NCBI GenBank assembly: GCA_038128265.1
Contig: JAYPJE010000032.1
Coordinates: 1-49,659, forward strand
Direction: 5' to 3'
Source: Gemmatimonadota bacterium
GTDB taxonomy: Bacteria; Latescibacterota; UBA2968; UBA8231
Length of the DNA: 49,659 bases
The position numbers were made by a program. Positions 3,001 to 9,000 of this stretch are shown one piece after another; position 1 is the stretch's first letter; every line of letters begins with the position of its first letter.

Positions 3001-6000
3001 AATGATGCCCGACTTTTCGGGCAAAAAATAGCGCATTTTCATTGCCCCCTGCGGATGTCGACGCGGGTAGTTTCGGGGCTGTCCACTGGCAATAAGCGCG
3101 CCTTCAGCGTAGATGTCGATGCCGTGCAGCGAGTGCAGGAAGTCGGCAATATTGTCGGCGCCGCGCCGCGCCGCGATTTCGAGCACGCAGATGGCATCGC
3201 CGTCGATTTTTAACTCGCAGTGAAAACAGCTGTTGCGCAGGCCCAGTGCCCGAACGGCGCTGGCGGCGGCATCTTGGATGGCCTCTTCGCGCGCCGAGCC
3301 CAGATGTGTTGGCATCCATTCCTCGTATTCGAGAAAGTAGTCCTCGTCTTTGATGCGCTCGATTTCAATAACGCCAAAGCAGCTCACCTCGCCGTCGCTG
3401 ACAATGCCGTCAACGCTCACCTGCTGTCCGGGGATAAAGCCCTCTAATAGGAAGTGCTCTCGCGGGTCGAAGACGTCGGCTGAGGCAATGCCACGACCTG
3501 CTTCAGGCAGCCAAAATTCGAACGGATACTGGGGATTTTCCTCGCGGTAGCTATCGATGTAGGTCCGCACTGATTCAACGTGTGCGGCGATGGTGTCCAA
3601 TCCGTCCTCCGGCATGAGGCGCACGACGCCGTAGCTCGAAGAGCCGCTAATCGGTTTGAGCACCATCGGGCGGTCGTGCTGCTGTAGTATAGAACGTGCC
3701 TGCTGAGCGCTGTTGACCAAGTGGAACTCGGGTGTGGGCAGGCCGGCGTCGCGCATCGCTGTGCGCATGAGGTATTTGTTGCGCGCGCGCAGCGCGGCGG
3801 CCGGAGCGTTGGCCGGTAGGCCGAGGTGTTCGGCGATAAAGCTGGCGCCGAGCACGCCGCTTTCTGAAAAGCTAAGCACGCCGTCGACGGGGTCGCGCCT
3901 GTTGAGGTCAACCGCACAGGCTAGTGCTGCACTGAGGTCTTCCTGGTAGTCGATGTCAAACGTCGCATCGAAACAGGCCTGATCGCTGGCGTTTGGGCAG
4001 CGCTTTATTAGGCTGGCGCGAAAGCCGAGCGCGCGCAGACGCTCAACATAGGGGCGCGCATCACCGGCCGTATGAACAAAGAGTAGATGTTTCATCCTGC
4101 GGCCTCGGTATGGTAGAATACCTGCTGCTGGTCCTCAATGACAAAGGCGCTTTGCAGGCGAGCAGCCTGCGCATCTATGCGCCGGCTGGCCTCGCGGTAG
4201 CTGCGTCCCCATACGCTGATCCAAGCAAGGTTGTCATAGCCGTGCGGCGGGACGGCTACGCAGTCGCCGGGCCCCTTGGTGAGCACCACTTCGATGAGGT
4301 TGCGGCTAGCCCGCGGTTGGCCTCTGCGCTCGAGGCGCACGAGCCCCGGTTTTTCCGGAACGAGCGTGCGCGAGATACCGTAGCCTAGGGCGGCAGTCGC
4401 CGGACTGACTGGCTGACCGAGTGCGGCGCGTATGTTTTCTATAGCTAGGTCAATTCCATAGACGCGCTGTACCAGTGCGTGAATGCAGTCGCCGCCCATG
4501 CGCGCACCTATTTCGATAATGCGGGGGCCGTCAGCGGTGATTTTGACTTCTGCATGGATGCCGCAGTTGTCTAATTCCAGCGCGGCGACGCCGTTGCGCA
4601 CCATGGTGCGAATCTGTTGCTGCACGTCCTCGGGAAAGAGCGAGGGCGTGGTTTCGCCGCGCTCTACAAAGCTGTCTTCGTCCATCTTGGCCTTGTCGAT
4701 GATGGCATAGATGGTCACCTGTCCGTTTTGCACAACGCCTTCGACGCTGACCTCCGGGCCGATGAGCAGGCTTTCGAGCACGTAGGTTCCGCTCTGGTAG
4801 CGATAGATGCAGTCTTGAATGCGCACGTCATCGCGTATGGACTGGAAGGTCTGGATGGCCTGCGGCGGCGTTTCGACGCGCAGCACCCATTCGCTATCGG
4901 AACCCCATTCCGGTTTCAGCACGGCGGGTGTGCCGACCGCGGCGCAGGCCTCGATCAGCGAGCTGTGGTCGAAAAAGCGGCGAAATGTGGGAACCGGCAC
5001 GCCGGCCTGTTCAAAGGCGCGCCGCATGCGGTATTTGCTGCGTGCGGCGAGTGCGGCCTGCGGGGCGTTGCCGGGCAAGCCGAGGCGAGCGCTGATCAGC
5101 GCACAGGTTGGCACGTCTTCCTCCCAGAAGGTCACGATGCCGTCGAACTGCTCGCGGCTATGGAGATCTTCGGCGAGTGCGACAACTTCGGGAATGCTGA
5201 GTCCGGCTGTGCAGTGCGTTTGTTGGACGAGAGAAGAGGCCCAGTTGGTCTCTGGATTCAACAGGTGGACCTGGGCGCCGAGTTGGCTGGCGGCGACAAA
5301 GGTCATGCGCTTCTTCGGGGATCCGCTATGGACGAAGAGCAGCTTGGGCGAGCGGGGTTCGATCATCTAGCTAACGACCTCCGTAGGCAAGGTAGAACAG
5401 TTGAAGTGTGGATTTGCATTGGTTCGCGTCGCGCATTGACATAGGACGTCCTTTGCTGGGATTAAACGAATTGATCGTCGGAGTCGCCGCGGACAACGGT
5501 GATTTGTCCCTGCTCCTCCAACTGGCGGACCTGCTGCACGATGCGCAGCTGGACCTCTTCTACTTCGGATACGCGCATCGGTCCGAGGAATTCCATCTCC
5601 TCGGTTATGTAGGTTCGCACGCGCTCGGACATATTGCCGAGAATCTTGTTTTTCAGCTCTTCACCGGCCGTCTTGAGCGCAATGACCAGATCCTTCTGAT
5701 CGACTTCGCGCATCAGCGTCTGTATTTCTCGATCGGTCAGCCGTACGATGTCGGCAAAGACGAACATCAGGTTGCGCACCGACTCTGCTACTTCTGGGTC
5801 CATGGCATCCATCTGGTCGAGGACGTTTTTTTCGACGGATGAGCCGGTCAGGTTGAGCATATCGGCAATGACGCGGGGGCCGCCGACGTCCTGGTTGCCG
5901 CCCAGCACGTCGCGCAGCGAGGCCTCGAGGCTTTCTTCGATCTGCTTGAGGACGGCGGGCGTGATGTTTTCCATCGTGGCTATGCGATAAGCAACGCCGG

Positions 6001-9000
6001 CCTGCAGGCGCTCGGGTAGCTGTGAGAGAATGCCCGAAGCCTGAGCCGAATCCAGCTGCGATAGGATAAGCGCGATGGTTTGTGGATGTTCGTGGCTTAT
6101 AAAGGGAGCAATCTGCTCGGGCGAGACGTTGCGCAGCATGTAGAAACCAGAGGCCACGCGGCTGCTGACGCGGTCGAGTATTTCCTGTGCCTTGCGCGGG
6201 CCAACCGCGCGTTCGAGAGCATTGCGGGCAAAGTCGATGCCGCCCTGACTGATCCATTCACCGGCCAGCAGGTGCTGTTCGAAGTCCTCGAGAACGCGGT
6301 CCATCACTTCGACGGAAACGCTCTTGAGTGCTGCTATAGACTGGGTTATTTCCTCGACCTCGTAATCGGAGAGGTGCTTCATTACCTCTCCGGCCACGTC
6401 GTGGCCGAGGGCGACCATGACGATGGCTACGCGCTGGCGCAGGGGGATTTCGGGTTCTTCGCTAACTTCTGCTGTAGCTGAGGCCATTGGCAACAAAAAA
6501 ACCGCACAAGTAAACTATACCAGTGCGGCCTTTGCTACTCGCGCGAAGGAGTTGTCTAAATAGACCGCACTGAACGAATGGCCTTCGACAGTGCGGCTGT
6601 CCTTAGGTGGCCAGAGGCCAGATGAGGACCCGTTCCTTCGCGTCCTACGCTTTCGCGTAGTTTGCCTTTTCGAAACGAAGACTGAGTGAAAATGTGAATA
6701 TTATGCCCAAAAAAATCAAGGGCATATTTTTCCGACGAAGCATTATTTTTTTTCGCATCGTCAGTGGCGCTTCTTGGGCATATCGGATGCTATGGTTCTT
6801 GGGCCAGTCCGGCGTCGCCCTTGAGCCACTGGGGATCTTCAAAAACGGGATCGGGGTAGGTGTAAAAGCCCCTGCCGGTCTTGCAGCCCAGCTCGCCGCG
6901 AGCGACGCGGTCGGTCAGGATGGGCGGGGGTGCGTCTCGCTCCAGGCCCGATTCGCGATAGTACACGTTTTCGATATCGCATATGACGTCCAGCCCTACG
7001 CGATCCATCAGGGCAAAAGGCCCCATTTTCATACCCGTAAAAATCATCCAAGCGCGGTCGACGTTTTCGTGCGAAGTGACGCCGTCGTTCACTAGGTGTA
7101 AGGTCTCGCGTTTGATGGCGCGCCAGACGCGGTTAAAGATAAATCCGGTGCTCTCTTTATCTACGACGAGAGGCGTTACGCCGATGCGCTGGGCACAGCG
7201 GTACACGGCCTCAATGGTCTCTTCGGACGTCGCGCTGCCGCGCATCAACTCGACCATCGGGCGCTGCCAAATAAGGCCGTAAAAATGCATATTGAGGACT
7301 TTGTCGAGGCGCTGTGTGGCGCTTTCGATCGCAGAGATTTTAATCGAGGAGCTGTTGGTAGCCAAAATTGTGTCGGGGGGCGTTAATGCGTCGAGTTGGG
7401 CAAAGAGCTGGCGCTTGAGTTCGAGGCGTTCGGGAATGGCTTCTATGACTAGGCCAGCGTCGGCCACGCCCTGTTCTAGCTCTTCGACATAGGTCATGCG
7501 CGCTCGCACGGCATCACTCTCGGCCGCGTCGTGTTCGCCGTCGTCGGTGCGGCGCTGCAGCTCCGTTGCCACGGTCTGCTGTGACTGCGCGCGCGCGTGG
7601 GAAGAGGGCTCGACCAGTCGCGTCTGATAGCCGTGGGCGGCGCACTGCAGGCCGATTTGCGTGCCGAGAAAACCCGACCCAACTACGCATATATACTGAA
7701 AATCGCTCATTCTACGTTCCCTTCGATAGCGGCCGCAGCACCAAAGGCATTGCGCAGGCGCTCGGCATCAAACTTCAGCGTCCGATCATAGGTGTAAATT
7801 CCGTTTTGCTCCTGCTCGATATCGGTCAACTGCGTGTAGGTAAATCCGGCCATATGGGGGTGGGCCGTCAGCGCACCGGTTAATTTTTCAATGCGTTCGT
7901 ATACCTCTTCGATGCGCTGTGGCCGGTTGCCATAGCCCCAGCCGGCCTCTCTATCGGTCCCATCGCCCGCGCTGGATTCGACCCACCAGGTGCCGCCGTA
8001 CTCATCTACCAAGTAGGGTTGGCCTCGATAGGGAATAGATAGCTCGGGGAAGCAGACGCGCGCTTGCTCCGGTCTATCCGGATGCACGGAGCGATAGGTT
8101 TCACAGAATGTGTCCGGATCCTGCTCGTAGTCGTGTACGGTAAAGATATCGGTCTTGACGTGTACGTAGCCGCTCGCATCGTGCACGGGGCGGCTTGGAT
8201 CGAGGGCGCGGGTCAGGTCATACGTGCTTTCAAGGGCGCGGCGATGAGCCTCCCGATGGCTGCGGGCGGCACCGATCGTCTCGTTAAAAGGAGTCCACGC
8301 GACGATCGATGGATGGTTGAGGTCGCGCAGGACGATTTCGCGCCATTCGCGCTGCTGGTTGGCCAGCGCCTGCGGCTGGCCAAAGTCGAGGCCCCAGTCG
8401 GAAAACTCGCCCCAAGTCAGGTAGCCCAGACGGTCTGCCCAGTAGTGAAAGCGCTCCTCGAAGACCTTCTGATGCAGGCGCGCGCCGTTAAAACCGACGG
8501 CCATAGCGCGCTCAATATCGGCTTTTAGCTCGCCGTCCGATGGGGCGGTCCACAGGCCGTCTGGATAGAAGCCCTGATCGAGCACAAAGCGCAGAAAAAT
8601 GGGCTGGTTATTCAGGTAAAATACATGGCCTTCAATGTGGAACTTGCGCAGGCCGGCGTAGGACTGCACGGAGTCGAGCACGGCTTCGTCGTCAACGAGC
8701 TCGAAACGGAGGTCGTATAGGTGAGGATCGGTCGGGCTCCACGGGCGCACCTGCGGGATATCAAGAACCAGCGAGGCGCCGCTGAGCGCAGACATGGAAG
8801 CGCTGTGTAGGATGCGTTCGCCATCGAGCAGCACCGCGCGAAAGCGCTGTCCGCGCGCGGTGCATTCAAGCGAGGGCGTCAGCACAAAGCGCTGCCCATC
8901 TAGGTCGGGCACGATGCGCACGGATTCTATGTGCGCCGCTGGAACGGCCTCTAGCCACACCGTTTGCCAGATCCCCGTTGTGCGCGTGTAGTGACAGCCG

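What a model noticed while it worked through the whole genome (the two positions that open the first line are those of the whole stretch)
5462..6676. fliG removed from the fliF-fliH operon and multiplied as dispersed paralogs, one behind a c-di-GMP riboswitch
fliF abuts fliH in the basal-body operon (C37:15881-18277). Three full-length fliG genes with the EHPQ motif and torque-helix charges lie elsewhere (C26:13706, C32:5462, C68:12800), and the C32 copy follows the genome's only c-di-GMP-I riboswitch. Flagellated relatives carry up to 10 scattered fliG matches.
Evidence so far: Alignment and motifs. fliF lies two genes from fliI in 20 order genomes (25 have FliF) against 987 of 54,066 genomes overall. 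36 of 75 family genomes have fliG at E<=1e-60, with 1-10 matches each; none of the 30 best loci had other flagellar genes within 1.5 kb. Riboswitch 51.4 bits, kept before the same paralog in 2 congeners, 3 of 20 loci. Searches 130, 131 and 231 found no such case.
(Added by a program. Inside this text positions count along the whole contig: contig position 1 is position 1 of the stretch shown here. "Call 12" and the like, gene names such as g00115 and contig names such as C1 are that model's own, and its searches are not shown. The text may have been shortened before it was handed on; [...] marks where a part breaks off. The agent that wrote the report below was given it as the finding of a first reader that could run no searches.)

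Follow-up and report, generated by a model that had tools for sequence, protein, structure and literature searches.

The report
Rotor gene freed and multiplied
In one class of uncultured aquatic bacteria the flagellar rotor gene fliG has left its usual operon and exists as several intact copies under different promoters, next to spare switch-protein sets that look detached from the motor, which suggests a motor tuned by swapping rotor parts.

Summary
Confirmed, and wider than reported. The genome has one fliF, directly followed by fliH, and three dispersed full-length fliG genes. This holds across a whole class of Ca. Latescibacterota: fliF-fliH in 39 of 39 readable loci, and 2 or more fliG in 48 of 54 genomes that have one. 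The phylum's other classes have a single fliG, beside fliF wherever both lie on one contig.

Plain copies keep the torque arginine (121 of 121) and are under purifying selection. In this family they sort into a fixed copy with a sigma-54 box like the basal-body operon, a divergent copy, and mobile copies, often with a sigma-28 box. The window gene is a mobile copy.

The riboswitch needs two corrections. It is a G20/G47/U92 variant closer to c-di-GMP-I-GGC, predicted ON, with an unproven ligand. In a sister family the same variant precedes the ATP-grasp operon without fliG, so fliG was probably inserted behind it.

Relatives also carry fliN-fliN-fliG-fliM cassettes whose FliG bears its own FliF-like tail and mostly lacks that arginine (kept in 2 of 21); related truncated FliGs are fused to histidine kinases. 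The scan noted such cassettes before on other DNA. I found no paper on this pattern.

The parts
5462..6487 (-). fliG, mobile 'type C' paralog, 341 aa from the ATG (a TTG at 6496 adds 3 codons); full N, M and C domains; EHPQ, GG hinge, MFVF and the torque-helix charges intact; no FliF-like N-terminal tail
   Evidence: dN/dS 0.048 and 0.03 against the G020 and G019 orthologs
6584..6676 (-). c-di-GMP-I-type riboswitch aptamer, variant with G, G, U at the Vc2 ligand positions G20, A47, C92; closest model RF03167 c-di-GMP-I-GGC
   Evidence: RF01051 51.4 bits; RF03167 58.6 bits, gathering 59; position read-out across 28 class aptamers
6564..6572 (-). anti-aptamer segment S2: pairs with the aptamer 3' strand without ligand, or with the terminator 5' arm once the aptamer is folded
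   Evidence: folding; conserved in G019 and G020
6495..6533 (-). intrinsic-terminator-like hairpin plus U7 tract just before the fliG start codon
   Evidence: not reported by the pattern scan, whose loop limit is 8 nt
4092..5366 (-). ATP-grasp ligase 1, 95 bp downstream of fliG; its ortholog directly follows the same riboswitch subtype in G139 and G140
   Evidence: (58% identity)
2779..4095 (-). ATP-grasp ligase 2 of the downstream operon
1515..2777 (-). ATP-grasp ligase 3 of the downstream operon
154..1518 (-). PLP-dependent decarboxylase (LysA-like) of the same operon; contig ends shortly after
6790..7710 (-). upstream 3-hydroxyacyl-CoA dehydrogenase; marks the locus as syntenic in G019 and G020; not part of the system

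Best explanation
In the ancestor of this class fliG left the fliF-fliH junction and became a free-standing gene. One copy (type A, C26 here) has a sigma-54 promoter like the basal-body operon and a fixed address; it most likely seeds the C ring during assembly (inferred). Being self-contained, the coding sequence was then copied repeatedly behind other promoters. These plain copies remain working rotor subunits that bind the single FliF and can enter the same C ring, so the cell supplies or tunes rotor protein by condition (inferred). The window gene is such a mobile copy (type C). It was inserted between a variant c-di-GMP-I riboswitch and the ATP-grasp operon that the riboswitch already controlled, and should be made only when ligand binding frees segment S2 to block the terminator (predicted ON switch). 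Shown: gene order, copy number, conservation, motif distribution. Inferred: mixed rings, switch direction, ligand, order of events.
For: Gene order: fliF-fliH in 27 of 27 readable family loci (30 fetched, 3 cut by a contig end) and in 12 of 12 sister-family loci, against fliF-fliG in 7 of 7 readable loci of other classes. Copy number: 48 of 54 class genomes with fliG have 2 or more, 16 of 16 outgroup genomes have 1. Class FliGs form one side of a 100% branch against 7 outgroup rows. Shared DNA between paralogs is mostly the coding sequence alone. The torque Arg, Lys and distal Arg are kept in 121 of 121 plain sequences, the acidic pair in 120. dN/dS is 0.02-0.23 in all 19 pairs with a printed ratio, including within-genome paralogs at dS 0.5-1.0. 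No FliG in 39 of the 43 family genomes without a FliF match; the other 4 are drafts of 170-690 contigs. MotA is not multiplied: 1-2 matches in 35 of 46 genomes. A sigma-54 box lies upstream of 22 of 30 type A, 5 of 52 type C and 0 of 15 type B copies (35 of 121 overall against shuffle mean 5.3, max 11) and upstream of flgB in 20 of 20 relatives (shuffle mean 1.4). The sigma-28 -10 box GCCGATA lies upstream of 16 of 52 type C and 0 of 45 type A or B copies. Riboswitch before the ATP-grasp ortholog without fliG in G139 and G140. Complex model of the window FliG N domain with the genome's FliF tail: weak support, score 0.50, best control 0.01; that mark was reached by 51 of 78 solved and 2 of 108 mismatched pairs, but at 0.60 or under by only 5 of the 78 and by all 4 mismatches that passed; runs agree in at least 90% of contacts, partner pLDDT at least 66; a like complex is solved, so it may reflect memory.
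Against: No expression, localisation or motility data; the lineage is known here only from metagenome assemblies. Type C is as conserved as type A or more so in every domain (N domain 0.73 against 0.69, inflated by recent duplicates), so type A need not be the main ring subunit. 36 of 52 type C copies lack the exact sigma-28 box. At full length the model favours the terminator by 5 kcal/mol even with the aptamer held (-62.6 against -57.6), so ON behaviour rests on folding during transcription, seen in the truncated folds of G000 and G020 but not cleanly in G019. The insertion scenario rests on two genomes of one genus. A degenerate aptamer also precedes a fliG in G009, so the riboswitch link may not be pure accident. 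Promoter boxes are consensus matches, and related genomes are not independent samples.
Confidence: 0.55

Rival explanations
1. Division of labour as in Borrelia: the paralogs are non-interchangeable ring components or act at different motors or poles. One is the assembly subunit, the others modulate load response or direction.
For: Three stable sequence types in the family; types A and B are never more than one per genome in the sample. Type B (C68) is divergent, 41-53% identical to type A by domain, with MFxF changed to LLSF in G000, yet conserved and syntenic in 15 genomes. Precedent in B. burgdorferi FliG1 and FliG2 (PMC7225975, passage).
Against: Type C occurs as up to 5 similar copies per genome that arose separately in each genus, which fits supply better than distinct roles. 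There is one strong fliF match per genome in the class.
Confidence: 0.25
2. Co-option: the extra plain copies serve mainly as partners or scaffolds for the motor-detached switch cassettes and FliG fusion proteins (kinase, FGE-like, cyclase), that is, a signalling role rather than torque.
For: Cassettes in 22 of 38 flagellated class genomes searched; FliG(N-M)-histidine kinase in 12 of 23 database clusters; cassette FliGs nest among plain ones and are rejected as one clade (p-AU 1e-39). G000 itself has FliG_C and FliM domains fused to an unrelated repeat.
Against: Plain copies keep the stator-facing charges (121 of 121) whereas cassette copies mostly lose the key Arg (2 of 21 keep it). All forms vanish in closed genomes without flagella. 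G000 has three plain copies and no cassette in its assembly.
Confidence: 0.12
3. Neutral birth and death: a mobile, harmless gene accumulates redundant copies with no role of their own, and the riboswitch position is incidental.
For: 94 of 122 neighbour clusters are singletons; positions of type C copies are genus-limited; the riboswitch-fliG link is seen in 3 of 28 aptamers examined.
Against: Within-genome paralogs at dS 0.5-1.0 have dN/dS 0.02-0.12, and enrichment of flagellar-type promoter boxes points to selected regulation.
Confidence: 0.07
4. Artefact of binning or assembly: copies come from contaminating contigs.
For: G000 is a draft with 5.15% contamination.
Against: All three copies have syntenic orthologs in G020; their contigs rank 22, 34 and 50 of 102 in tetranucleotide distance; 1-5-contig genomes carry 3-7 strong matches; junctions are bridged in other studies.
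Confidence: 0.01

Closest known systems
Canonical FliG of the C ring (T. maritima 1LKV/4FHR, Salmonella 8UMD) in fliF-fliG-fliH
   Same: All three domains, EHPQ, GG hinge, MFxF and torque-helix charges; one FliF with a conserved C-terminal tail.
   Different: No copy is left in the operon; several copies per genome under separate promoters, across a whole class.
Borrelia burgdorferi FliG1 and FliG2; Bacillus thuringiensis fliG1 and fliG2
   Same: More than one fliG for one flagellar system; in Borrelia the two have different roles and FliG1 localises asymmetrically (PMC7225975, passage).
   Different: Two copies only. B. thuringiensis keeps fliF-fliG1-fliH (PMC11511885, passages); that Borrelia keeps fliG2 beside fliF is recalled. 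Here there is none in the operon, up to 7-10 strong matches, and continuing turnover.
c-di-GMP-I (GEMM, Vc2; RF01051) and its variant c-di-GMP-I-GGC (RF03167)
   Same: Two-stem aptamer with GAAA tetraloop and G20; terminator-based platform.
   Different: G47 and U92 in place of A47 and C92 (contact residues named in PMC4744006, passages); the RF03167 consensus has C at the last position. The ligand is untested.
Campylobacter jejuni FlgS checkpoint (PMC3760246, abstract)
   Same: A histidine kinase linked to FliF/FliG assembly and to sigma-54 flagellar genes; in G006 the FliG-kinase cassette follows a sigma-54 activator gene.
   Different: In relatives here the kinase is fused to FliG N-M domains with a built-in FliF-like tail; no such gene is in the G000 assembly.
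FliF-FliG fusions (engineered, PDB 8Z4D; natural, P0018-P0020)
   Same: FliF tail and FliG in one chain.
   Different: Cassette FliGs carry only the tail helices and none of the FliF ring domains, so they would be plugged rather than anchored.

Membership tests
FliG (TIGR00207) | Full-length N, M and C domains above the curated cut-off | tested here: met
   346, 350 and 272 bits against 226.7 for C32, C26 and C68; Pfam domains
FliG (TIGR00207) | EHPQ FliM-binding motif and GG hinge | tested here: met
   present in all three G000 copies
FliG (TIGR00207) | Stator-facing charges of the C domain | tested here: met
   aligned to T. maritima and C. sporogenes chains; 121 of 121 plain sequences keep the key Arg; the E. 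coli R281 / T. maritima R283 numbering is recalled
FliG (TIGR00207) | Co-folding with the FliF C-terminal tail | tested here: inconclusive
   weak-support complex model, 0.50 against best control 0.01, for a pair with solved relatives
FliG (TIGR00207) | Encoded between fliF and fliH | tested here: not met
   39 of 39 readable class loci have fliF-fliH; this is the usual gene order, not a feature that defines the protein family
FliG (TIGR00207) | Assembles in the C ring and generates torque | not testable with these tools
   needs experiment
c-di-GMP-I riboswitch (RF01051) | Covariance-model score above gathering threshold | tested here: met
   51.4 against 35 bits
c-di-GMP-I riboswitch (RF01051) | Ligand-contact nucleotides G20, A47, C92 | tested here: not met
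   G, G, U by the alignments; the same G47/U92 pair in 7 of 28 class aptamers
c-di-GMP-I-GGC variant (RF03167) | Score at gathering threshold and G/G/C contact set | tested here: inconclusive
   58.6 against 59 bits; G47 fits, the last position is U
c-di-GMP-I riboswitch (RF01051) | Binds c-di-GMP and switches expression | not testable with these tools
   only a folding model of the platform
Motor-detached switch cassette of this class (fliN-fliN'-fliG*-fliM) | FliF-like tail or deleted N domain, adjacent fliM/fliN, loss of the torque Arg | tested here: not met
   the window gene has none of these; relatives' cassettes do

The most novel reading that the evidence does not exclude
This class has broken the flagellar switch into a regulated toolkit. 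A sigma-54 FliG seeds the ring, and sigma-28- or riboswitch-driven copies top it up. Cassettes, many behind an ECF sigma factor, supply self-plugged, torque-dead FliG with their own FliM and FliN. These either co-assemble into the motor as a clutch or form motor-free rings whose state is read out by fused histidine kinases, receiver domains and cyclases. The window riboswitch would be a G/G/U variant with shifted cyclic-dinucleotide specificity that ties a rotor subunit to peptide-ligase genes.
Probability: 0.3. Interest if true: 0.9.

Novelty: new variant of a known kind. Interest (0 to 1): 0.72.

Why it matters
fliF-fliG-fliH is among the most conserved flagellar gene orders, and FliG is normally single-copy or at most doubled (established knowledge). 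A whole class with no fliG in the operon and several selected copies on different promoters implies motor control by rotor-subunit composition, not only by brakes or stator exchange. It supplies natural variants for open questions: whether FliG exchanges in a built ring, whether mixed rings work, and whether a C ring can assemble without the MS ring. The G/G/U aptamer is a ready test case for riboswitch ligand change.

Tried and rejected
Contamination or assembly artefact: rejected.

FliG kept without a flagellum: not supported. Among family genomes of 10 or fewer contigs, those without FliF have no FliG match.

A mobile element carrying fliG: no shared flanks beyond about -110 to +390 bp among within-genome plain paralogs; I did not run a transposase or repeat search.

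Stator multiplication as the driver: MotA has 1-2 matches (one protein query, missing in 11 of 46 genomes).

OFF-switch reading of the riboswitch: my first guess, dropped once segment S2 was found.

Cassette FliGs as one ancient clade: rejected by the AU test (quick tree, long branches present).

Structural proof that the cis tail fills the FliF groove: the model of a cassette FliG shows two confident helices at residues 16-26 and 28-40 (block pLDDT 62 for residues 11-20, 93-94 for 21-40), but the fold search returned only FliG chains and cannot place them.

Expression: no RNA holder listed, which is no evidence either way.

Literature: eight searches on FliG paralogs, fusions, gene order, the lineage and riboswitch variants gave no paper on this pattern. 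One search was swamped by unrelated words, the library lacks most subscription papers, and I read no supplements. The paper on c-di-GMP-I variants was not held, so what is known of the GGC variant's ligand stays open.
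Full report
**Observation.** The window gene at 5462-6487 (-) is a full FliG (TIGR00207 346 bits, cut-off 226.7). The genome (G000; 84.5% complete, 5.15% contamination) has two more, on C26 (71% identical) and C68 (45%). The basal-body operon on C37 runs fliE-fliF-fliH-fliI-fliJ-fliK-flgD-flgE-motA-motB and on to fliM-fliN-fliO-fliP, flhB and flhA, with 69 bp between fliF and fliH. The genome has 9 Flagellin_N matches, CheW and MCP domains, and 3 GGDEF matches. Rfam finds one aptamer at 6584-6676. Record titles of relatives read mostly Ca. Latescibacterota or Gemmatimonadota/Gemmatimonadetes, two Ca. 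Handelsmanbacteria, and a few other phyla; I take the lineage to be Latescibacterota.

**Reach.** In the order (one family, 76 genomes) 37 have FliG and 33 have FliF. Of the 43 without FliF, 39 have no FliG, and the other 4 are fragmented drafts. All 16 genomes of other classes with a match have exactly one. fliH follows fliF in 27 of 27 readable family loci (30 fetched) and in 12 of 12 loci fetched from the three sister families (15 have FliF). fliG follows fliF in 7 of 7 readable loci of other classes (9 fetched), and coordinates place it beside fliF in 8 more. Near-closed genomes confirm the copy numbers: G006 7 and G014 7 over the cut-off, G117 7 and G146 5. All 80 class FliGs in a tree of 87 fall on one side of a 100% branch. 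The trait therefore most simply dates from the class ancestor and is lost with the flagellum.

**Plain copies.** I fetched most, not all, full-length matches: 121 plain sequences, 120 distinct. Neighbours define three types in the family. Type A (C26; next to selA; 30 genomes) and type B (C68; behind a UvrB/C-motif gene; 15 genomes) are never more than one per genome. Type C (the window's; 52 sequences, up to 5 per genome) is the remainder, has genus-limited addresses, and expanded separately in different genera. Paralogs share little beyond the coding sequence. All 121 keep the Lys, the torque Arg and the distal Arg; 120 keep the acidic pair (mapped through T. maritima chains; residue numbering recalled). 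dN/dS is 0.02-0.23 over the 19 pairs with a printed ratio, and 0.048 and 0.03 for the window gene.

**Promoter boxes.** A sigma-54 box precedes 22 of 30 type A, 5 of 52 type C and 0 of 15 type B copies; the sigma-28 -10 box precedes 16 of 52 type C and none of A or B. flgB has the sigma-54 box in 20 of 20 relatives (shuffle mean 1.4). Type A is thus the best candidate for the relocated assembly gene. Against this, type C is at least as conserved. A second type C locus of G020 is missing from G000 together with its neighbours, so G000 may have a fourth copy.

**Riboswitch.** The aptamer fits RF03167 c-di-GMP-I-GGC better (58.6 bits, gathering 59) than RF01051. At the Vc2 contact positions G20, A47 and C92 (PMC4744006, passages) it has G, G, U. 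Seven of 28 class aptamers share G47 with U92. RF01051 matches 20 of 132 class genomes under strict filters, and fliG follows 3 of the 28 aptamers examined (G000, G019, G020). A degenerate aptamer precedes a fliG in G009 (E 1.5e-6). In G139 and G140 the same subtype precedes the ortholog (58%) of the window's ATP-grasp gene 4092-5366 with no fliG. In G000, G019 and G020 fliG sits between the two, so insertion is the simplest reading.

**Switch direction.** The leader has four complementary segments. Without ligand the aptamer 3' strand pairs with S2 and a terminator forms before the start codon (-83.4 kcal/mol). With the aptamer held, S2 pairs with the terminator's 5' arm in transcripts cut before the 3' arm (G000, G020; unclear in G019). 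At full length the terminator still wins by 5 kcal/mol. The prediction is a kinetically controlled ON switch of uncertain ligand.

**Beyond the finding.** fliM is multiplied too: up to 7 matches per class genome, against 1 in each of 4 outgroup genomes. Many extra fliM genes lie in cassettes such as fliN-fliN'-fliG*-fliM, often behind an ECF sigma factor and zf-HC2 anti-sigma factor. I count cassettes in 22 of the 38 flagellated class genomes searched. Their FliG carries, just before the N domain, a helix pair like the FliF tail: profile scores reach 30 bits, 14 sequences score 10 or more, against 2 of 2,540 shuffles; it is visible by eye in 20 of 21, many of which score below the shuffle maximum. 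In one genus the N domain is deleted instead. Only 2 of 21 keep the torque Arg (class assigned by neighbours, not by this residue).

**Fusions.** These include FliG(N-M)-hybrid histidine kinase (4 genomes; 12 of 23 database clusters), FGE-sulfatase-like-FliG, FliM-FliN-FliG, receiver-FliM, cyclase-FliG_C and MotA-like-FliG_C. G000 has no cassette in its assembly, but has a second fliM, an extra fliN, and FliG_C and FliM domains fused to one shared N-terminal repeat. Three earlier scan notes describe such cassettes in other genomes. I had reached the same reading before seeing them, and they are not independent support.

**Mechanism.** Most likely (0.55), the plain copies are working rotor subunits supplied from different promoters into rings built on one FliF, the window copy through a captured riboswitch. 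Division of labour as in Borrelia (PMC7225975, passage) has 0.25 and may hold for type B. A mainly signalling role has 0.12 and neutral redundancy 0.07. The complex model of the window's N domain with the FliF tail gave weak support only: 0.50 against 0.01, for a pair with solved relatives; at such scores only 5 of 78 solved complexes and all 4 passing mismatches lie. FliM and FliN exchange in working motors is reported (PMC7355467, passages); FliG exchange is not shown there. A kinase that senses FliF/FliG assembly is known in C. jejuni (PMC3760246, abstract).

**Papers seen.** Passages: PMC4744006, PMC7225975, PMC11087270, PMC11673145, PMC11511885, PMC4820103, PMC7355467. Abstract and outline: PMC3760246. 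All others: search listings only. No supplements were read.

**Novelty.** Two fliG genes per flagellar system are known. Complete removal from the operon with class-wide multiplication, promoter sorting and tailed cassettes was not found in my searches (one search returned 0 papers), which cover open-licence papers and preprints only. I rate it a new variant of a known kind, interest 0.72.

Noticed in passing
L237:8013-11105 (G006 C4); also L238, L244, L245: FliF-like tail plus FliG N-M domains fused to a hybrid histidine kinase, inside a fliM-fliN-fliN' cassette; in G006 it follows a sigma-54 activator gene.
   Followed up: partly
L239, L240, L241, L242, L243 (sister families); L238, L245, L350 (window's family): An FGE-sulfatase-like domain sits at the same cassette position, fused to FliG in sister families and to FliN in the window's family; some database relatives add a SpoIIE domain.
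   Followed up: partly
L135:1225-3999 (G065): A single chain joining FliM, FliN and a full FliG with the torque Arg intact.
   Followed up: partly
L155:3842-4969 and L240:6051-6716: A MotA-like segment fused to FliG_C, putting stator-like and rotor parts in one protein, next to cassettes.
   Followed up: no
G000 C95:139-930 (L010) and C93:1052-2152: Two proteins share an N-terminal repeat with no Pfam match (scanned for C95); one ends in FliG_C, the other in a FliM middle domain.
   Followed up: no
G000 C9:3630-4766, C9:69967-70260, C6:102296-102868, C14:68513-69076: A second dispersed fliM, an extra fliN, a FliG_N-like fragment and a FliM-like fragment.
   Followed up: no
L190 (G140) and L193 (G139), riboswitch leaders: The same G47/U92 aptamer is followed by what look like three tandem terminator hairpins built from one repeated helix, suggesting a domino-type platform (read by eye).
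   Followed up: no
L119, about 1755-1870 (G009 C137): A degenerate c-di-GMP-I-like aptamer upstream of a fliG in another genus, missed by the Rfam genome search.
   Followed up: partly
window 154-5366 (-): Three ATP-grasp ligases and a PLP decarboxylase in one operon, distantly like peptide-metabolite ligases; product unknown; riboswitch-linked in two families.
   Followed up: partly
G000 C2, C4, C8, C72: Nine Flagellin_N matches at scattered loci; of eight checked, two have sigma-28 and two have sigma-54 boxes.
   Followed up: no
L255:3410-4624 and L254:2954-3697 (G014): An adenylate/guanylate cyclase domain fused to FliG_C, and a protein with two tandem FliG_C domains.
   Followed up: no
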